NCBI GenBank assembly: GCA_934133015.1
Contig: CAKPAQ010000001.1
Coordinates: forward strand, 1-42,043
Length of the DNA: 42,043 bases
Direction: 5' to 3'
From: an uncultured Bacilli bacterium
GTDB lineage: Bacteria > Bacillota_I > Bacilli_A > RF39 > UBA660
The notes under the pieces: generated by a model
Databases searched by the model: none
Seen by the model: the letters and a program-made list of their open reading frames with translations, nothing else
Told to the model about the DNA's origin: nothing
Translations under genes and position numbers: made by a program
Shown: in pieces, positions 12,736 through 41,471 of the stretch
Layout of the letters: every line of letters starts with the position of its first letter
Numbering within the stretch: the first letter of the stretch is position 1

Positions 12736-12792
12736 TCACCAAGGAAATAGTAACAAAACCATCAATAAAAATCAATAACTTTTATAAATACT

Positions 12793-12819
12793 AAAAAAGA
12801 AAGCTAAAAACTAGCTTTC
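12793..12819 (-). terminator. Intrinsic terminator after the 168-aa ORF
   Basis: GAAAGCTA (12799-12806) pairs with TAGCTTTC (12812-12819), loop AAAAC. A U run follows on the minus strand (A run 12793-12798). Confidence 0.7.
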
Positions 12820-13317
12820 CAATTTTGCTTTCTTATAAATATACTGTTTTTCTTCTGTATCAATAATTGATGGACAATCAAGTATATAATAATTTTTAAT
12901 TCGTTTAAATTGTGAAACAAACTCATCAGTTTCAGTAACTCTAGTAATAGGTGAAAAGGAAGTAGGCAAATAATCTCTAAGCATTAATTTAGAAATATTT
13001 TTAACTTTTCTCTGAGATAACTCTTTACTAGGATGATATCCCATAGCATATAAATAAAGAGAAATATTACAATATGGAATTATTACAAAATCTTTATCAT
13101 TAACATTACTATAACTATCCTCAGTTTTTAAATCAACAATTGGATAATCAATATCCATTGAGTTTATTTTATTAGCAGCATCAGTTCCAATATTAACTGT
13201 ATCAGTACCATCAGTAGAATAAAGAATTCTTCTAACTGGAACATATCCAGGAGTTAAACTATATTGATCTTTTAATAATTTAACAACCCATCCAAGATTT
13301 AAATTTTCTATTGTCAT
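12811..13317 (-). CDS. Hypothetical soluble protein (168 aa), no recognised family
   Basis: ORF starts 10 nt downstream of the ftsH stop and has its own terminator. No TM segment and no motif I can name. Confidence 0.55.
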   Translation of the reverse strand: MTIENLNLGWVVKLLKDQYSLTPGYVPVRRILYSTDGTDTVNIGTDAANKINSMDIDYPIVDLKTEDSYSNVNDKDFVIIPYCNISLYLYAMGYHPSKELSQRKVKNISKLMLRDYLPTSFSPITRVTETDEFVSQFKRIKNYYILDCPSIIDTEEKQYIYKKAKLES

Positions 13318-13326
13318 AAATACCTC

Positions 13327-26008: not shown

Positions 26009-26228
26009 AAAAAAAAGATCATTAATCCAATAAGGACGAATGATCGCGGTACCACCTTAATTTATAGTAAAACTATACACTTAACTTCTTAACGCGAAAA
26101 ACGTATAAACCTAATATCGATTTATCAGTTCCGGAACCATCTATTTATCTCAAATTATACTTACTTTCACCTAACTAAGCTCTCTACAATAATCATCAAT
26201 AAACTCTTTCCTTCAAAACCTTTATATG
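26009..26228 (-). promoter_or_regulatory. T-box riboswitch leader, methionine (AUG) specifier, with terminator/antiterminator
   Basis: The minus strand reads ...AAUUAAGGUGGUACCGCGAUCAUUCGUCCUUAUUGGAUUAAUGAUCUUUUUUUU. The T-box core GGUGGUACCGCG lies at 26045-26056. The terminator stem GAUCAUU/AAUGAUC (26017-26023 / 26039-26045) is followed by U8. Stem I has an AGAGAG bulge and a distal loop AGGUGAAAG. In my manual fold the Specifier Loop ends ...UAG-AUG-G before stem UUCC/GGAA, placing codon AUG at 26138-26140. Confidence 0.85.
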
Positions 26229-31622: not shown

Positions 31623-31650
31623 AAAAATTATTTTCCGGGAAATAATTTTT
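31623..31650. repeat. A/T-rich CCGGG-centred palindrome immediately after the rsmI stop (terminator-like), member of a 3-copy family
   Basis: AAAAATTATTTTCCGGGAAATAATTTTT has one mismatch from a perfect palindrome. Near-identical copies lie at 38385-38412 and, degenerate, at 38851-38876. Confidence 0.6.
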
Positions 31651-32503: not shown

Positions 32504-33223
32504 TTACTCAAACATTTCTTTTACATGTTTTGTATAACTACCATCATCATTATGAACATAAAGTGGTGGCAACAATTTAAGTCCATCCCTTGCACACTTT
32601 CTTGCTTCAATTAAAACCATATTTGATTCTTTTCCAACTTTAGGATATACAAATTGCATCTTTTTTACAGCAAAATCATTATTTTCCAATAGTTTTATAA
32701 TTTCTATAACACGTTCCGTACGATGAACCATAGCCAGTACTCCATTAGTTTTCAATAAATATTTACTAATAATAACAATATCTTCAAGTGTAATATATTT
32801 CTCATGCCTAGCTATTATTTTATGTTCATCATCATTTAAATTACTACTTTCTAAATATTTAAAATATGGTGGATTACAAGTGATAACATCAATACTATTG
32901 ATATCATAAATATCACATAATTTTTTCATATCCATATTCAATAACTCAATTTTATCAGTTAAATTATTATAAATGACACTTTTCTTTGCTAACTCAAAGC
33001 AATCTTTTTGAATCTCTACACCAATAATTTTAGCATCCGTTTTAGTAGACAAAATTAACGGAATGGGCGCATTTCCACACCCTAAATCAATAATAGTATT
33101 TATCTTACTGTTTAAAGTAACAAAATTAGCCAACAATACAGAATCAAGTGAGAAACTAAACCAATCTGTATTTTGATAAATCTTAAAATTTCTATAATTC
33201 AATAAATCATTTATAACTTCCAT
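32504..33223 (-). CDS. Class I SAM-dependent methyltransferase, YabB/TrmN6-like (tRNA m6A37 type)
   Basis: Motif I DLGCGNA and motif IV NPPY (ITCNPPYF). Position equals yabB in Bacillus. Confidence 0.7.
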   Translation of the reverse strand: MEVINDLLNYRNFKIYQNTDWFSFSLDSVLLANFVTLNSKINTIIDLGCGNAPIPLILSTKTDAKIIGVEIQKDCFELAKKSVIYNNLTDKIELLNMDMKKLCDIYDINSIDVITCNPPYFKYLESSNLNDDEHKIIARHEKYITLEDIVIISKYLLKTNGVLAMVHRTERVIEIIKLLENNDFAVKKMQFVYPKVGKESNMVLIEARKCARDGLKLLPPLYVHNDDGSYTKHVKEMFE

Positions 33224-34008
33224 ATATCCTCTTCAACTTCAATAAAATTATGATTATCGGTTTCAACAATAATTGAACCCTTTAAAATATTTATTGAAGA
33301 AATTTTACCACTAACATCATCATTTTTATATCTTTCACCAACATGAGGCATTTTATTTTTGATGTCTGTATAAACATCATCTTCATAATTTAAACAACAT
33401 AAAAGACGTCCACATACACCATTTATTTTAGTAGGATTTAACGATAATAATTGATTTTTAGCCATATTTATAGATACACTATTAAAATCAGTTAAGAAAC
33501 TACTACAACATAAAAAACGTCCACATGGCCCAATTCCACCTATTTCACGTGCCTTATCTCTAACACCAATTTGTCTTAATTCAATACGTGTTTTATATAT
33601 TTGAGCTAATTTTTTGGCTAAATCCCTAAAATCAACTCTATCATCTGCTAAAAAATTAAATAATAATTGTTTTCTATCAAAGGTAAAACTTGCATCTATA
33701 ATTCTCATATCAAGTTTTAATTTATCAGCAATTTTTCTAGCTTCAATAAGTGCCTTCTTTGCATCAGCAATATTTTTAGAATTAGTTTTAACATCATCAT
33801 TTGTAGCTAATCTAACAATATTCTTAGTAGGTAAACCCATATCACTATCACTTATATTTTTAATTGACGATACAACAATTCCATATTGTAAACCTTTTTC
33901 TGTTTCAACTATAACAGGTACATTAATGGTAATATCTGATATATTATCACACGAAAAATAATAATTCTTTCCACCCTTTTTTAAGGATACTGCCACAACT
34001 TTAGTCAT
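33211..34008 (-). CDS. ricT: PSP1-domain protein YaaT/RicT
   Basis: PSP1 C-terminal Cys-rich region (GPCGRFLCCSSFL, GVCGRLLCCLNYE). ATG 34008 or 34014 lies downstream of AGGAG (34018-34022), whereas the longest ORF starts at 34047. It overlaps the holB 3' end. Confidence 0.82.
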   Translation of the reverse strand: MTKVVAVSLKKGGKNYYFSCDNISDITINVPVIVETEKGLQYGIVVSSIKNISDSDMGLPTKNIVRLATNDDVKTNSKNIADAKKALIEARKIADKLKLDMRIIDASFTFDRKQLLFNFLADDRVDFRDLAKKLAQIYKTRIELRQIGVRDKAREIGGIGPCGRFLCCSSFLTDFNSVSINMAKNQLLSLNPTKINGVCGRLLCCLNYEDDVYTDIKNKMPHVGERYKNDDVSGKISSINILKGSIIVETDNHNFIEVEEDIWKL

Positions 34009-34855
34009 ACACATCAACTCCTGAAAAATTAATAATAAATTGATCAAGCATTAAATTTACATTCAAATTATATACTAATTTATCTATTTGCTTAGTCAAA
34101 ATATCTATTTTATTAACTATTAAATCAATTGAATTAAATTCATTTATATAATCAATTATATTATCTAAGTCATTTTGATAAACAACACCTATTTTTTTTC
34201 TTAATGCTTGATAATATATTATTTGCATTGCTTTAAATATATCAAGCCACTTATCTCTAGTATAATACTCATTATTACAAAGAATAGGAACATATGAAAT
34301 AGAAGTACTTTTACGTTTTTCGATCATTTTAATAAATTCAACAATAAAATCAAGATTATCAAAAGTATAATTAGAATTTTCATTTACTAATGAAAATATT
34401 TGACATCTACTTTGAAGCGTTTCAAGTACTCTATATCTACTATCAGATACAAGAATACCAATTATACCAGGTTGAGGTTCCTCCAAAAATTTTAATAATG
34501 AATTGCTAGCCTGTTCATTTAGCTTGTCCGCATCATTAATAACATATATTCTAGGTTTATTATTCAATGATTTTGTCATAAATTTTTCTTGTATTTCCAA
34601 AATTTGAGCCTTTTTAATTACAGAACTACTACTATCTATCCCTATTTCAATATAATTTCCATCAGCTTTTATTTGCTCAATACTAGCAACATCTGGATAA
34701 GAATACAAAAGACCAACAAACAAATCTATGACTTTATTTTTATCATAATAACCATTAGTTTCAATAAGATAAGCATGAGTTAATTTATTATGATTAATTA
34801 TAGAAATAATATTATCAAAAAATCGTTGTTGCTCACCAAAATCATTAAATATCAT
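34001..34855 (-). CDS. holB: DNA polymerase III delta' subunit
   Basis: 284 aa. HAYLI, LLKFLEEP, SRCQ clamp-loader motifs without an intact Walker A. Conserved position upstream of yaaT. Confidence 0.78.
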   Translation of the reverse strand: MIFNDFGEQQRFFDNIISIINHNKLTHAYLIETNGYYDKNKVIDLFVGLLYSYPDVASIEQIKADGNYIEIGIDSSSSVIKKAQILEIQEKFMTKSLNNKPRIYVINDADKLNEQASNSLLKFLEEPQPGIIGILVSDSRYRVLETLQSRCQIFSLVNENSNYTFDNLDFIVEFIKMIEKRKSTSISYVPILCNNEYYTRDKWLDIFKAMQIIYYQALRKKIGVVYQNDLDNIIDYINEFNSIDLIVNKIDILTKQIDKLVYNLNVNLMLDQFIINFSGVDVYD

Positions 34856-37771: not shown

Positions 37772-38218
37772 CTATCTTTTTTTCAAAAAAAACTGTTTTA
37801 ATAGTTTTCCACAATCATTTTTTAAAATATTATTCACTATTACGATATCTGTACCATTTGATTTATCAAATAATATTTTATCCACAATATTGTGATTATT
37901 ACTATTATTATCAGCACCAATGACAATTTTTGAAATTCTTGACTGATTTATAGCACTTGCACACATAGAACACGGATATAAAGTAATATACATAGTACAA
38001 TCATTCAATCTCCAATTTTTTAGCTTTTTTGATGCTTTTTTTATAGCTAAAATCTCTGCGTGATTAATTACACAATTTTTTTTATTTTTTGTGTTATATG
38101 CCTTAGAAATAACCCTATTTTCTTTAACAATAACTGCTCCAACTGGTACTTCTCCTCTATTATATGCTTTTTTTGCCTCATTTATGGCTATTTTCATATA
38201 AAATTCATCATTATTCAT
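37772..38218 (-). CDS. tadA: tRNA-specific adenosine deaminase
   Basis: CDA zinc motifs HAE (INHAEILAI) and PCxxC (LYPCSMCASAI). ATG 38218 lies 6 nt after AGGTG (38225-38229). The track start 38227 is a GTG inside the SD. Confidence 0.9.
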   Translation of the reverse strand: MNNDEFYMKIAINEAKKAYNRGEVPVGAVIVKENRVISKAYNTKNKKNCVINHAEILAIKKASKKLKNWRLNDCTMYITLYPCSMCASAINQSRISKIVIGADNNSNNHNIVDKILFDKSNGTDIVIVNNILKNDCGKLLKQFFLKKR

Positions 38219-38238
38219 AAAATTCACCTACAAAAAAA

Positions 38239-38310
38239 GTGCACATAAACATTTAGTGTTAAGGCTGCTATTTTCCAATCCTGACCTGGTTCCACAAACA
38301 TTTATTGCAC
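38239..38310 (-). ncRNA. ffs: Signal recognition particle RNA, small (4.5S-type)
   Basis: The minus strand reads GUGCAAUAAAUGUUUGUGGAACCAGGUCAGGAUUGGAAAAUAGCAGCCUUAACACUAAAUGUUUAUGUGCAC followed by U7. The conserved domain IV is present (CCAGGUCAGG...GGAA tetraloop...AGCAGCC; compare E. coli CCAGGUCAGGUCCGGAAGGAAGCAGCC). The 5' and 3' arms pair with G-U wobbles. The neighbourhood (tadA, dnaX) is that of B. subtilis scr. Confidence 0.85.
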
Positions 38311-38316
38311 AACACA

Positions 38317-38345: not shown

Positions 38346-38359
38346 GCTATTTATATTAA

Positions 38360-38375
38360 TGTTTCACGTGAAACA
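38360..38375. other. parS: parS site 1 (Spo0J/ParB binding site)
   Basis: TGTTTCACGTGAAACA is a perfect 16-bp palindrome matching the B. subtilis consensus TGTTNCACGTGAAACA. Confidence 0.88.
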
Positions 38376-38376
38376 T

Positions 38377-38385
38377 TGTGGATAA
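38377..38385 (-). promoter_or_regulatory. DnaA box (perfect TTATCCACA on minus strand), 1 nt from parS 1
   Basis: The plus strand TGTGGATAA is the reverse complement of TTATCCACA. Confidence 0.6.
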
Positions 38386-38412
38386 AAAATTATTTCCCGG
38401 GAAATAATTTTT
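38385..38412. repeat. Perfect 28-nt palindrome AAAAATTATTTCCCGGGAAATAATTTTT (bidirectional terminator-like hairpin or protein site)
   Basis: Read directly. Same family as 31623-31650 and 38851-38876. Confidence 0.65.
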
Positions 38413-38571
38413 CTTCAATTATAATTCACATATTTAGTAAAATTACCATTATTTTAAAGATAATAGTTTTTTTATAAACAATTTTCAAATTTTACTTAAA
38501 AGTGATTTAAATAATCAATAATAACACCTTATATTACATATTAAATTATAAAAAGTTTAAATAATTAATAC

Positions 38572-38580
38572 TTATCCACA
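38572..38580 (+). promoter_or_regulatory. DnaA box (perfect TTATCCACA)
   Basis: Exact 9-mer on the plus strand, 21 bp before parS 2. Confidence 0.55.
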
Positions 38581-38601
38581 AGAAAATTATAGTTAAATCA
38601 A

Positions 38602-38617
38602 TGTTCCACGTGAAACA
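38602..38617. other. parS: parS site 2
   Basis: TGTTCCACGTGAAACA matches the consensus parS as I recall it. Confidence 0.88.
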
Positions 38618-38618
38618 T

Positions 38619-38627
38619 TGTGAATAA
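38619..38627 (-). promoter_or_regulatory. DnaA-box-like 9-mer (1 mismatch), 1 nt from parS 2
   Basis: The plus strand TGTGAATAA is the reverse complement of TTATTCACA. Confidence 0.35.
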
Positions 38628-38824
38628 ATTTTTTATAAATTAATATAAAGTTAACAAAATTGTTAAAAATTATATTCAACATTATTCAATATTTTACTAA
38701 TTAATAAAGCATGTAATATTTTAATTTTATTAACAAGTTAATATTTTTATAACATAAACCTAACTCAATAACAATTTTAACACATAAAACAAGCTTTATA
38801 ATAAAAATAACTATAACTGATCAA

Positions 38825-38840
38825 TGTTTCACGTGGAACA
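38825..38840. other. parS: parS site 3
   Basis: TGTTTCACGTGGAACA is the reverse complement of TGTTCCACGTGAAACA. Confidence 0.88.
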
Positions 38841-38841
38841 T

Positions 38842-38850
38842 TGTGGATAA
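38842..38850 (-). promoter_or_regulatory. DnaA box (perfect), 1 nt from parS 3
   Basis: Plus strand TGTGGATAA. Confidence 0.6.
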
Positions 38851-38876
38851 AAATTTATTTTCCGAGAAATAATTTT
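38851..38876. repeat. Degenerate copy of the CCCGGG-centred palindrome
   Basis: AAATTTATTTTCCGAGAAATAATTTT. Together with parS 3 and its DnaA box it forms a ~55-bp direct repeat of 38358-38412. Confidence 0.5.
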
Positions 38877-38986
38877 ATTTAACGATACTATAATGTGCTT
38901 AATTAATTTAAAACTTTCTATTTCACATTTATAAACGTTTCTAACAGTTTCTGATAATCAATTAAGATTAACTATTTAAATTACAT

Positions 38987-39002
38987 AGTTTCACGTGAAA
39001 CA
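38987..39002. other. parS: parS site 4 (one mismatch)
   Basis: AGTTTCACGTGAAACA, where position 1 is A instead of T. It lies directly beside the gyrA terminator. Confidence 0.6.
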
Positions 39003-39003
39003 T

Positions 39004-39037
39004 AAAAAAAGTGAAGAGTATGAACCTTACTCTTCAC
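39004..39037 (-). terminator. Intrinsic terminator of gyrA
   Basis: The minus-strand GUGAAGAGUA (39028-39037, last codons plus stop of gyrA) pairs with UACUCUUCAC (39011-39020). U7 follows (A run 39004-39010). Confidence 0.8.
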
Positions 39038-41471
39038 TTTTTACTTCTTCATCAATATCTTCGTTTTCTTTCATAATTGTAGCTACTGTAGCAACTTTCT
39101 GTTCATCTTTCAATTTAATCAATCTGACACCTTGAGTAGCTCTACCTAACGTAGATATTTGATCCATAGACATTCTCATAACAATTCCATTATCAGTAAT
39201 AATTACTAGATCTTCATCACCTGTAACAGCCTTTAATGAAACTAACATACCATTCTTTTCAGTAACATTTAAAGCCTTAACTCCCTTACTACCACGATGA
39301 GTTAATCTATAATCCACAATAGGTGTTTTCTTTCCATAACCCTTTTCAGTAACAATAAGAACTTGTTTATCAGGATCAATAACCTCTGCACCAATTACCT
39401 TTGAATCTCCTAAATCAATACCCTTAACACCAGAAGCAGTTCTACCCATTACTCTAATTTCTTTTTCCACAAATCTTACCATTCTACCATTTGATGCACC
39501 AATAATAATTTCGTTATCACCAGTTGTTTTTCTAACAGAAATCAATTCATCATCATCTTTTAAAGTAATAGCTATTTTTCCACTGGTTCTAATATTATCA
39601 AACTCACTTAAATCAGTTCTCTTAATTAATCCATTACGTGTAACTAATGTTAAATATTTATCCACAGATTCTTTAGAACTCAAACATATGATTGAGTTAA
39701 TACACTCATCTTTTTCCACAGGTAATAAATTAACTATCGGTAATCCTTTACTTTGTCTACTAAATTCAGGAACCTCATAACCCTTCATACGATATACCCT
39801 ACCCTTATTACTAAAGAATAAAATATAATCATGAGTTTCCATATTTAGCATTTTTTCAACAAAGTCTTCTTCATTAGTTGCCATACCCTTAATTCCAACT
39901 CCGCCTCTATTTTGAGTTCTATACACATCAACAGGCATTCTCTTAATATAACCCTTATTTGTTAATGTAATTAGAATATTATCAACAGGAATTAATGACT
40001 CGTCTTCTATATATTCAATAGCTGTCATATCTATAGTGGTACGACGATCATCACCATATTTATCCCTAATTTCAAGTAATTCTTTTTTTATAACAGCTAA
40101 AACATTTTCATCACTACTTAAAATCATTCTAAGTTCAGATATAAGCTTCAATAAATCAGCTAATTCATTTTCTATTTTTTCTCTTTCCAAACCAGTCAAA
40201 CGACGAAGTTTCATTTCAAGAATAGCATTAGCTTGAGCTTCACTTAATCCAAAATTATCCATCAAACCTTTACGAGCTTCATCATCACTATTAGAAGCCT
40301 TTATTAACTTAATAATTTCATCAATATGATCAAGTGCAATCTTTAATCCTTCTAAAATATGCACTCTTTTTTCAGCATTATCTAAATCAAATTTAGTTCT
40401 ACGAATTATTACTTCCCTTTGAAAATCAATATATTTTGATATAATATCCCTTAATCCTAGTGTTTTAGGAACACCTTGATCAAGCATTAATAATATAATT
40501 CCATAACTAGTCTGAAATGCAGTGTGCTTGTATAATTTATTAAGAACAACTTGAGCATTTGCATCCTTCTTTAAAGTAATTGTAATTTTTATTCCATCCT
40601 TCAAATCAGAATGATAATCAGCAATTCCCTCTATTGTCTTATTATGAACAAGTTCTGCAACCTTATTCTTTAATTCAAGAGTATTAACTCCATATGGAAC
40701 TTCATCAATAATTATATATTGTTTACCATTTTTTTCCTCTATTCTTGCCTTACTTCTTATTGTAATAGAGCCACGTCCAGTTTCATAAGCCTTACGAATA
40801 CCACTATTTCCTAAAATAATAGCACCAGTAGGAAAATCAGGTCCTTTTATATAATTCATTAACTCATCAAGAGTTATATCATGATTATCAATATATGCAA
40901 CACAACCATCTATAACTTCTCTTAAATTATGTGGCGGAATATTAGTCGCCATACCAACCGCAATTCCAGTAGTACCATTTACTAAAACATTAGGAAATCT
41001 AGATGGTAAAACAACTGGTTCCTTAGTAGTTTCATCAAAGTTTGGAATAAAATCAACAGTATTTTTATTAATATTACGTAATAACTCTAAAGATACTTTT
41101 GATAATCTTGACTCAGTATAACGCATAGCTGCAGCCCCATAACCTTCAATATTACCAAAATTACCATGACCATCAATTAACATATAACGATATGAAAAAT
41201 CTTGAGCCATTCTTACCATAGCTTCATAAATTGAAGAGTCACCATGAGGGTGATAATTACCCATAACTTCACCGACTGTTTTAGCACTTTTTTTATGAGG
41301 TTTATCTGGAGTATAACCAGATTCAAACATAGAGTACAAAATACGCCTATGTACGGGTTTTAAACCATCTCTTAAGTCTGGAATAGCACGTGCCGTAATA
41401 ACGCTCATAGAATAGTCTAAAAACGAGTCCTGAACCTCTTTTACAATATTATTATGTTCTAATCTATCCAT
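39027..41471 (-). CDS. gyrA: DNA gyrase subunit A
   Basis: 814 aa. [18 protein letters not shown], active-site Tyr context AAMRYTE, C-terminal beta-pinwheel repeats. Confidence 0.98.

What the first reader, a model, noticed from the sequence alone, without database searches (positions are those of the whole stretch)
38355..39003. Dedicated non-coding island with four parS sites, three of them abutting DnaA boxes
About 0.75 kb between the gyrA terminator and the ffs promoter has no ORF and is extremely A/T-rich. It holds four matches to the 16-bp Spo0J/ParB site TGTTNCACGTGAAACA: 38360-38375 (perfect palindrome), 38602-38617, 38825-38840 (inverted form) and 38987-39002 (1 mismatch). Starts are spaced 242, 223 and 162 bp apart. 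By eye I find no other CACGTG-centred parS-like site in the remaining ~41 kb. In the first three, exactly 1 nt after parS lies a DnaA box on the opposite strand (TGTGGATAA twice, TGTGAATAA once). A further perfect TTATCCACA sits at 38572-38580. Units 1 and 3 (38358-38412 and 38823-38877) are ~55-bp direct repeats of parS + DnaA box + CCCGGG-centred hairpin. In B. subtilis the origin-proximal parS sites are scattered singly and mostly lie inside genes. I do not know of a described Firmicute example of a clustered centromere-like intergenic island in which ParB and DnaA sites touch. The 1-nt spacing predicts steric competition or cooperation between ParB and DnaA. That is intriguing because Soj/ParA-Spo0J is known to regulate DnaA in B. 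subtilis. The island could act as an SMC-loading centromere, a DnaA-titrating box cluster, or both.
Basis: partly seen in the sequence, partly recalled or inferred. Interest (0 to 1): 0.72.

Follow-up and report, generated by a model that had tools for sequence, protein, structure and literature searches.

The report
Origin-proximal parS array with Noc and DnaA sites

Summary
The window's only four parS sites (≤2 mismatches) lie at 38360-39002. Three have a DnaA box 1 nt away, and a fourth box lies 21 nt from parS-2.

The "CCCGGG hairpin" is an exact 16-bp Noc-binding site (NBS, TATTTCCCGGGAAATA).

The organism is an uncultured low-GC gut member of the Bacilli. The same species encodes ParA, a parS-type ParB, and a Noc-type ParB paralogue (specificity residues Q-K-S-R). 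That paralogue lacks Noc's N-terminal membrane helix. oriC lies at dnaA, about 7.4 kb from the island.

- **Strain variation:** strains with identical GyrA carry 4 or 8 parS.
- **Clade-wide array:** in a motif-blind sample, 20 of 22 relatives (GyrA ≥60% identical, complete spacer) have 3-9 parS in the same gyrA-tadA spacer. More distant genomes have none.
- **Narrower cassette:** NBS–TTATNCACA–1 nt–parS recurs in about 11 closer lineages (GyrA about 79-85% identical, one at 70%). Box-parS spacing is fixed, while spacers are scrambled.

Best reading: a ParB-loading centromere that in this sub-clade has also become a Noc-type loading site and a DnaA-box cluster. It holds more consensus boxes than oriC. 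Binding and function are inferred, not shown.

It is a new variant of a known kind, of moderately high interest.

The parts
38360..38375 (.). parS-1, a perfect 16-bp palindrome TGTTTCACGTGAAACA. It is the last site of the array in gene direction, about 15 nt upstream of the -35-like hexamer of the putative ffs promoter.
38377..38385 (-). Consensus DnaA box TTATCCACA, 1 nt from parS-1.
38391..38406 (.). Perfect Noc-binding site (NBS) TATTTCCCGGGAAATA. It is the core of the 24-nt palindrome AAATTATTTCCCGGGAAATAATTT and lies 5 nt from the DnaA box.
   Evidence: Consensus quoted from bioRxiv 10.1101/2022.02.28.481274.
38572..38580 (+). Consensus DnaA box TTATCCACA, 21 nt from parS-2. It is the inverted outer box of the second unit type; the same position is kept in diverged copies in the 8-site strains.
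38602..38617 (.). parS-2 (TGTTCCACGTGAAACA).
38619..38627 (-). DnaA box TTATTCACA (fits TTATNCACA), 1 nt from parS-2.
38825..38840 (.). parS-3 (TGTTTCACGTGGAACA).
38842..38850 (-). Consensus DnaA box TTATCCACA, 1 nt from parS-3.
38856..38871 (.). Degenerate NBS TATTTTCCGAGAAATA (2 mismatches), at the same place in the unit as the perfect NBS.
38987..39002 (.). parS-4 (1 mismatch), directly after the gyrA terminator. It has no DnaA box and no NBS.
39006..39042 (-). Terminator-like hairpin at the end of gyrA (upstream boundary of the island in gene direction).
38230..38316 (-). ffs (small SRP RNA), the downstream boundary of the island. tadA (37772-38227) and dnaX follow.
39027..41471 (-). gyrA, the conserved upstream neighbour of the array in all relatives.
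31629..31644 (.). NBS-like site outside the island (1 mismatch, TATTTTCCGGGAAATA). It shows that NBS-type sites are not confined to the array.

Best explanation
The island is the chromosome's main, possibly only, origin-proximal centromere. It is a tandem array of parS sites about 7.4 kb from the unwinding region of oriC. ParB dimers nucleate there, close into CTP clamps and spread. This builds the partition complex that ParA acts on and that normally recruits SMC.

In this species and its near relatives the repeat unit has become a three-site cassette. In gene and replication direction it reads NBS - 2 to 6 nt - DnaA box TTATNCACA - 1 nt - parS. A second unit type alternates with it: box - 1 nt - parS - about 21 nt - inverted box.

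I infer three things.
1. The Noc-type ParB paralogue encoded next to parA loads at the NBS, so two ParB-family clamps are loaded side by side.
2. DnaA occupies the high-affinity boxes. The array is then also a DnaA-box cluster that replicates seconds after initiation and sequesters DnaA, like the B. subtilis DnaA-box clusters (DBCs) or E. coli datA. It would sit inside the ParB/ParA environment that regulates DnaA in B. subtilis.
3. Because the box touches parS, bound DnaA and nucleating ParB probably cannot sit there together. DnaA could act as a one-sided roadblock or insulator between the ParB and Noc-type clamps.

**Shown:** sequence anatomy, conservation, copy-number variation, presence and specificity residues of the proteins, and position relative to oriC.
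**Inferred:** all binding, clamp loading, titration and roadblock steps.

My confidence by layer: parS centromere about 0.85; NBS used by the Noc-type protein about 0.7; boxes bound by DnaA about 0.6; titration or insulation role about 0.35. The overall figure of 0.65 is for the statement that this is a ParB centromere whose NBS and DnaA-box sites are also functional binding sites.
For: **parS**
- The four sites occur only here in the 42-kb window, against 0.05 expected by chance.
- There is no parS (≤2 mismatches) in a further ~18 kb of the same species, covering oriC and the parB gene (L085 is 99.87% identical to the window over their 2386-nt overlap).

**Proteins, same species (L085)**
- The gene order is rsmG, Noc-type ParB paralogue (358 aa), ParA (262 aa), ParB (293 aa).
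- ParB aligns best to B. subtilis Spo0J (6sdk, E = 4e-66). It has R and G at the parS-specificity positions and a ParB_C domain.
- The paralogue aligns best to solved Noc structures (7ng0, E = 5e-64). It has Q, K, S, R where Noc has Q, K, K, R; Jalal et al. found at least one Lys sufficient.
- Both proteins keep the GERR motif.

**NBS**
- The window site is an exact match to the published 16-mer.
- Further NBS sites lie outside the array, at window 31629 and L085:13353.

**oriC**
- GC skew flips at rpmH-dnaA.
- DnaA boxes and a TAATAATAATAATAAT run lie around dnaA.
- Skew is uniformly negative across the window, including both sides of the island.

**Conservation**
- In loci found by GyrA alone, 20 of 22 with GyrA ≥60% identical and a complete gyrA-tadA spacer carry 3-9 parS there. 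Loci with GyrA ≤57% identical carry none there; two have a single parS elsewhere downstream of gyrA.
- The NBS-box-parS cassette is always in the same orientation, with box-parS spacing of 1 nt (0 nt in two species) and variable NBS-box spacing. It recurs in about 11 species-level lineages, including the motif-blind loci L090, L098 and L093.
- Within the 8-site strain, units 4 and 5 are only ~60-67% identical to the others, near background for 18% G+C. They still keep parS, boxes and NBS.
- Flank logos show only position -1 (A) is general to parS in the clade. TTATNCAC appears on the gyrA side only, so the box is a separate element.

**Box load**
- The 8-site array has 10 strict TTATNCACA boxes, against 2 in the oriC spacers.

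**Specificity of the composite**
- A scan of 185,579 species genomes for box+1nt+parS gave 79 stretches. About 55 are in this clade and none is in a cultured model Firmicute.

**Precedents**
- DnaA binds the Caulobacter centromere.
- B. subtilis DBCs and Spo0J jointly restrain initiation.
- S. aureus Noc restrains DnaA-dependent initiation.
Against: - No binding data exist; the organism is uncultured.
- The DnaA-box abutment is absent from most arrays of the wider clade, so it is dispensable for centromere function.
- In one close relative (L031) the box has partly decayed, to TTATACCCA and TTGTGCACA.
- Copy number varies two-fold between strains with identical GyrA, so dosage of any one site is not tightly constrained.
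- Recent duplication or gene conversion explains part of the similarity between units: units 3 and 7 are 94% identical, units 2 and 6 are 80%.
- The Noc-type protein scores below NCBIfam's Noc cut-off (287.8 against 315). It has Ser instead of Lys at one specificity position. It lacks the N-terminal membrane-targeting helix, with an in-frame stop 15 codons upstream of the start. What it does after loading is unknown.
- Whole-genome parS, NBS and box distributions, and the presence of smc, could not be checked.
Confidence: 0.65

Rival explanations
1. Plain centromere only. The array serves ParB alone. The DnaA-box-like and NBS-like sequences are passengers of a repeat unit that was amplified and homogenised by unequal crossing-over, and they have no function of their own.
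For: - Most arrays in the wider clade have no consensus DnaA box.
- Copy number is polymorphic.
- Some units are 80-94% identical, so they duplicated recently.
- The box has decayed in L031.
Against: - The same three motifs, in the same order and with fixed box-parS spacing, persist in about 11 lineages whose spacers are unalignable. They also persist in the diverged units 4 and 5 of one array.
- Variation in the box falls mainly at the fifth position, the degenerate one in TTATNCACA.
- The NBS copies are exact 16-mers, and a matching Noc-type protein is encoded.
- The chance frequency of TTATNCACA at a fixed position in this composition is about 3e-5 (own estimate from the base frequencies).
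Confidence: 0.15
2. The island is primarily a DnaA-regulatory locus (datA/DBC-like sink, or a DnaA-controlled switch of ParB loading). parS would be recruited to it secondarily, so the DnaA boxes are the key element.
For: - The array holds more and better boxes than oriC: 10 strict boxes against 2 in the 8-site strain.
- It lies 7.4 kb from oriC, so it is duplicated immediately after initiation.
- B. subtilis DBCs work best near oriC and act together with Spo0J.
Against: - Phylogenetic order is the reverse. The parS array is clade-wide, and the boxes appear only in a sub-clade.
- parS-4 has no box.
- Boxes are spread about 200 bp apart rather than densely packed.
Confidence: 0.1
3. The island is part of, or a second, replication origin.
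For: It has many consensus DnaA boxes in very A/T-rich DNA, 18-20% G+C.
Against: - GC skew does not change sign at the island. It flips at rpmH-dnaA.
- dnaA-dnaN carries a box next to a trinucleotide run typical of Firmicute unwinding regions (the reading of the run is from own knowledge).
- Boxes in the island are dispersed and each is tied to a parS.
- Most clade members have arrays without boxes.
Confidence: 0.03
4. The island is a transcriptional control region for ffs-tadA-dnaX, with the palindromes acting as operators.
For: - parS-1, the box and the NBS lie 15-60 nt upstream of a promoter-like site for ffs.
- DnaA is a known transcription factor (PMC13438810).
Against: - Only the last unit is near a promoter; the others are 250-650 bp away.
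- Promoter-like matches in the island are not above the shuffled expectation: 13 found against 10.4 expected.
- Array length varies between strains.
- The palindromes are exact parS and NBS consensus sites.
Confidence: 0.05

Closest known systems
Clustered chromosomal parS centromeres (Caulobacter crescentus parS cluster; Corynebacterium glutamicum, 10 sites; Myxococcus xanthus, 22; Streptomyces coelicolor and Listeria innocua, 20-23)
   Same: Several consensus parS sites are concentrated near oriC and serve one ParABS system. The 16-bp consensus is the same.
   Different: - All sites here sit in one 0.8-1.7 kb non-coding spacer at a fixed syntenic position (gyrA-tadA).
- They form a repeat array with copy-number polymorphism.
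- The units carry extra protein-binding sites.
- B. subtilis sites are scattered and mostly intragenic (own knowledge).
DnaA binding at the Caulobacter centromere (Mera, Kalogeraki and Shapiro 2014, as reviewed in PMC6399470)
   Same: DnaA boxes lie within the parS region, linking the initiator to the centromere.
   Different: - Here the consensus box directly abuts parS at a fixed 1-nt spacing and is repeated 3-7 times.
- The phylum is different.
- Nothing has been tested experimentally.
B. subtilis oriC-proximal DnaA-box clusters (DBCs; Okumura et al. 2012) and E. coli datA
   Same: These are non-origin clusters of high-affinity DnaA boxes near oriC that lower initiation potential. In B. subtilis their loss is synergistic with loss of Spo0J.
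   Different: - None of the six B. subtilis DBCs is described in that paper as interleaved with parS.
- None lies after gyrA. They are gcp-ydiF, yqeG-sda, ywlC-ywlB, ywcI-vpr, yydA-yycS and thdF-jag.
- Here the boxes are about 200 bp apart, one or two per parS.
Noc-NBS nucleoid occlusion system of B. subtilis and S. aureus
   Same: - The 16-bp NBS is identical.
- The ParB paralogue is encoded between rsmG and parA.
- It has Q, K and R at three of the four specificity positions and keeps the GERR motif.
- S. aureus Noc also restrains DnaA-dependent initiation.
   Different: - The protein lacks the N-terminal membrane-targeting helix. It has a long low-complexity linker and a different C-terminal domain.
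- It scores below the NCBIfam Noc cut-off.
- The NBS is paired with parS at fixed geometry in the centromere, in addition to the dispersed copies.

Membership tests
Chromosomal ParABS centromere (parS) | Match to the 16-bp consensus TGTTNCACGTGAAACA, far above chance. | tested here: met
   Four sites with 0-1 mismatch; 0.05 expected in the window.
Chromosomal ParABS centromere (parS) | A cognate ParB with parS-type specificity residues, and a ParA, encoded in the same genome. | tested here: met
   L085 is the same species (99.87% identical to the window over 2386 nt). Its ParB has R and G at the specificity positions and matches Spo0J best (6sdk). ParA is 262 aa.
Chromosomal ParABS centromere (parS) | Origin-proximal location. 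| tested here: met
   The island lies about 7.4 kb from the dnaA-dnaN spacer. The skew switch is at rpmH-dnaA.
Chromosomal ParABS centromere (parS) | ParB binding and spreading, and SMC recruitment, at the site. | not testable with these tools
   This needs EMSA, ChIP or Hi-C. An smc gene could not be looked for outside the ~60 kb examined.
Noc-NBS system | 16-bp NBS TATTTCCCGGGAAATA. | tested here: met
   Exact match at 38391-38406 and a 2-mismatch copy at 38856-38871. The 8-site strains have three perfect copies.
Noc-NBS system | A ParB paralogue with the Noc specificity residues Q173, K179, K184, R201 (ParB numbering). | tested here: inconclusive
   The residues are Q, K, S, R by alignment to solved Noc structures. 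Jalal et al. found that one Lys at 179 or 184 suffices in their variants. Binding itself is untested.
Noc-NBS system | An N-terminal amphipathic membrane-targeting helix. | tested here: not met
   The protein starts at the equivalent of Noc residue ~27, and an in-frame stop lies 15 codons upstream. It should therefore not be filed as bona fide Noc.
Noc-NBS system | NCBIfam equivalog score for Noc (TIGR04285, cut-off 315 bits). | tested here: not met
   287.8 bits.
Non-origin DnaA-box cluster (DBC/datA-like) | Several consensus DnaA boxes clustered in non-coding DNA outside oriC. | tested here: met
   There are 4 TTATNCACA boxes in 0.65 kb (3 perfect). The 8-site strain has 10. The oriC spacers have 2.
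Non-origin DnaA-box cluster (DBC/datA-like) | DnaA occupancy and an effect on initiation timing. | not testable with these tools
Non-origin DnaA-box cluster (DBC/datA-like) | Conservation of the boxes among relatives. | tested here: inconclusive
   The boxes are conserved in about 11 near lineages at fixed spacing. They are absent from most arrays of the wider clade.
Replication origin (oriC) | GC-skew switch and adjacency to dnaA. | tested here: not met
   Skew stays negative through the island. The switch is at rpmH-dnaA, 7-9 kb away.

The most novel reading that the evidence does not exclude
The ~45-bp cassette NBS - DnaA box - parS may be a dedicated cell-cycle integration module. DnaA bound between the two loading sites would gate or direct the loading and sliding of two different CTP clamps: ParB and a membrane-helix-less Noc-type paralogue. 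Conversely, the clamps would control DnaA availability right after initiation. Replication initiation, segregation and a Noc-type function would then be coupled on one repeated DNA element. This would give a natural, minimal in vitro substrate for asking how Noc-family proteins restrain DnaA, which was left open for S. aureus, and why parS sites cluster.
Probability: 0.25. Interest if true: 0.8.

Novelty: new variant of a known kind. Interest (0 to 1): 0.62.

Why it matters
Clustered parS sites, DnaA-box clusters and Noc sites are each known. I found no description of them fused at fixed spacing into one repeated cassette. Only one paper in the searchable library even mentions all three terms.

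If the sites are used as predicted, several things follow.
- The array gives a compact natural substrate, 26-45 bp, for testing ParB-DnaA and Noc-DnaA interplay. This bears on two open questions: how Noc restrains initiation and why parS sites cluster.
- It defines the centromere of a large, uncultured, low-GC gut lineage.
- It explains frequent assembly breaks after gyrA in these MAGs.
- The within-species 4-versus-8 polymorphism is a natural experiment on centromere dosage.

Tried and rejected
- **B. subtilis DBC after gyrA.** I recalled from memory that B. subtilis has a DnaA-box cluster after gyrA. The list in Okumura et al. does not include it, so I dropped the claim.
- **Extended ParB palindrome.** I tested whether the box is just part of an extended palindrome (CAA...TTG). 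Only position -1 is general in the clade, and TTATNCAC occurs on one side only. Rejected.
- **Second origin.** Rejected on GC skew.
- **ncRNA in the island.** There is no Rfam match except ffs.
- **Tandem Repeats Finder.** It does not call the array, because the spacers are too diverged. This itself argues against a purely recent duplication.
- **Look-ups that failed.** Livny et al. 2007 is not held. The GTDB placement (I suspect order RF39) could not be confirmed from the papers held, so I give only the NCBI record names.
- **Not done.** I did not predict the structure of the Noc-type C-terminal domain. I could not scan a whole genome for parS, NBS, smc or yabA.
Full report
**1. What is in the window**

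All large ORFs lie on the - strand. In gene direction the order is gyrB (partial), gyrA (39027-41471), the island, ffs (38230-38316), tadA, dnaX, ybaB, recR, holB, ricT and onward. This mirrors the origin-proximal region of B. subtilis (the B. subtilis order is from my own knowledge).

- **parS.** The consensus, allowing two mismatches, matches only at 38360, 38602, 38825 and 38987. Shuffles expect 0.05 matches.
- **DnaA boxes.** Boxes sit 1 nt from the first three parS sites, at 38377, 38619 and 38842 on the - strand. Another perfect box is at 38572.
- **Spacer.** It is 806 nt, 20% G+C. It has no ORF above 33 aa and no RNA family besides ffs.

**2.

The "CCCGGG hairpin" at 38391-38406 is TATTTCCCGGGAAATA. 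This is the exact 16-bp Noc-binding site used for the Noc-DNA co-crystal. A 2-mismatch copy lies at the equivalent place of unit 3 (38856-38871), and a 1-mismatch copy lies outside the island at 31629.

Read in gene direction, the full unit is NBS - 5 nt - TTATCCACA - 1 nt - parS.

**3. The same species elsewhere**

An exact look-up of the GyrA protein returned gut-metagenome contigs, from Hadza and other samples.

- Two of them (L001, L003) have a 1670-nt spacer with eight parS.
- The window, L002 and L004 have four.
- The window aligns to L001 as a deletion between repeat units.

In the long form two unit types alternate.
- Type A: NBS - box - parS.
- Type B: TTATTCACA - 1 nt - parS - about 21 nt - inverted box.

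Units 2/6 and 3/7 are 80% and 94% identical. Units 4 and 5 are only ~60-67% identical to the rest, which is near background for this composition. They nevertheless keep parS, both box positions and the NBS. Tandem Repeats Finder does not call the array.

**4. Origin and partition genes**

L001 and L085 extend the window.

- L085 is 99.87% identical to the window over 2386 nt.
- The gene order is rpmH | dnaA-dnaN-comK-recF-gyrB-gyrA.
- GC skew flips at rpmH-dnaA. Skew is uniformly negative across the whole window, including both sides of the island.
- The rpmH-dnaA spacer has seven one-mismatch boxes. The dnaA-dnaN spacer has one perfect box and a TAATAATAATAATAAT run.
- The island therefore begins about 7.4 kb from the likely unwinding region.

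On the other side of oriC lie rsmG, a 358-aa ParB-family protein, ParA (262 aa) and ParB (293 aa).

- **ParB** matches B. subtilis Spo0J best (6sdk, E = 4e-66). It has R and G at the parS-specificity positions.
- **The 358-aa protein** matches solved Noc structures best (E = 5e-64). It has Q, K, S, R where Noc has Q, K, K, R.
- That protein begins at the equivalent of Noc residue ~27, with an in-frame stop 15 codons upstream. It therefore lacks Noc's membrane-targeting helix.
- It also falls below the NCBIfam Noc cut-off. I call it a Noc-type ParB paralogue, not Noc.

No parS (≤2 mismatches) occurs anywhere in L085, not even inside parB. One perfect NBS lies upstream of mnmG.

**5. Relatives found by the DNA motif**

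I scanned 185,579 species genomes for TTATNCACA-N-parS and got 79 stretches.

- About 55 come from low-GC [quoted passage not shown] MAGs.
- In all of those with gene context, the match lies in an array of 2-11 parS between gyrA and tadA-dnaX.
- The remaining ~20 are nearly all single hits in unrelated phyla. That is about what chance predicts for roughly 10^6 parS sites (my own rough estimate).
- No cultured model Firmicute appears.

**6. Relatives found blind to the motif**

I searched metagenome contigs with GyrA alone.

- Of the 22 loci with GyrA ≥60% identical and a complete gyrA-tadA spacer, 20 carry 3-9 parS there. The other two have a single parS after tadA.
- Loci with GyrA ≤57% identical have no array.
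- The array is therefore a clade-wide, syntenic feature.

The abutting box is much narrower in distribution.
- In this sample it appears only in L089, L090 and L098 (GyrA ≥82% identical).
- Strict boxes are 7.5-fold enriched in arrays overall, but most arrays have none.

**7. The cassette**

I took all tight NBS-parS pairs from both samples.

- The NBS is always on the gyrA side.
- The gap is 10-15 nt.
- In about 11 species-level lineages the gap reads ...TTAT[C/A/G]CACA-A, or TTTTCCACA.
- These lineages are the window species, L075, L031, L062, L083, L013/L090/L098, L053, L081, L047, L093 and L045.
- Box-parS spacing is 1 nt (0 nt in L081 and L053). NBS-box spacing varies from 2 to 6 nt.
- Among intact boxes, variation falls at the fifth base, the degenerate one in the classical consensus.

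Flank logos of 116 distinct parS sites from the wider clade show only position -1 (A) conserved on both sides. The box is therefore an independent, one-sided element and not an extended ParB palindrome.

**8. Interpretation**

The parS array meets every sequence-level criterion of a chromosomal centromere.

A tight array behaves as one strong loading locus. Work in B. subtilis shows that widely separated loading sites cause SMC collisions.

The NBS copies, together with a matching Noc-type protein and further NBS sites nearby, argue that a second ParB-family clamp loads in the same place.

The boxes make the array a DnaA-box cluster with more consensus sites than oriC itself: 10 against 2 in the 8-site strain. 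Known biology makes a regulatory link plausible.
- DnaA binds the Caulobacter centromere.
- B. subtilis DBCs and Spo0J act together against over-initiation.
- S. aureus Noc restrains DnaA by an unknown route.

The 1-nt spacing makes simultaneous occupancy of box and parS unlikely (inference). This suggests either competition or a roadblock or insulator role for DnaA between the two clamp-loading sites. None of this has been tested.

The absence of the boxes from most arrays, their decay in L031 and the two-fold copy-number polymorphism all caution against an essential role.

**9. Verdict**

- It is a new variant of a known kind: a parS centromere combined with a DnaA-box cluster and NBS sites.
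- It is worth experimental follow-up because the cassette is small and the predictions are sharp.

Noticed in passing
L085:16102-17178 (same species as the window, outside it): The Noc-type ParB paralogue has no N-terminal membrane-targeting helix. It carries a low-complexity linker with a poly-Asn run and a ~60-aa C-terminal domain without a Pfam match. A homologue occupies the same position in a related species (L084:15423-16448).
   Followed up: partly
window 31629-31644; L085:13353; L084:12082: NBS-type sites occur outside the array. One is a 1-mismatch site between pth and rsmI. Perfect sites lie upstream of mnmG in two species. So NBS sites are also dispersed around the origin.
   Followed up: partly
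L006 3570/3660; L054 1472/1562; L080 5349/5439; L028 3853/3943: Pairs of NBS-like sites about 90 bp apart lie inside the dnaX coding region of several more distant clade members. The window's own dnaX has none.
   Followed up: no
window 32504-34047: ricT (yaaT) overlaps the next gene, a trmN-like methyltransferase. This leaves no room for yabA, the DnaA regulator found at this position in B. subtilis (own knowledge). Whether yabA exists elsewhere in the genome was not tested.
   Followed up: no
L001:6332-6793 (between dnaN and recF): A comK-family gene sits inside the dnaA-gyrA cluster. It is conserved across the clade (tblastn hits in many loci).
   Followed up: no
L076, L067, L058: Dense parS arrays appear in unrelated phyla. 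A gammaproteobacterial MAG has 15 parS in ~1 kb. A Ca. Moranbacteria MAG has 9 parS at a 60-68 bp period. An Omnitrophota MAG has 7 parS near dnaA.
   Followed up: no
L089-L168 (metagenome contigs): Many contigs end inside or just after the gyrA-tadA array. The array evidently breaks short-read assemblies, and its length is likely under-reported in MAGs.
   Followed up: no
L112 (downstream of gyrA): A relative has a regular 112-bp tandem repeat. Each copy carries one NBS and one parS 29 nt apart, with no DnaA box between them. This is a different solution to pairing NBS with parS.
   Followed up: partly
window 26029-26225: A T-box leader lies on the - strand upstream of the dUTPase-like gene and metS.
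   Followed up: no
L085:10672-11388 and 12750-13322: Two genes without any Pfam match (238 aa and 190 aa) are inserted into the otherwise canonical jag-mnmE-mnmG cluster.
   Followed up: no
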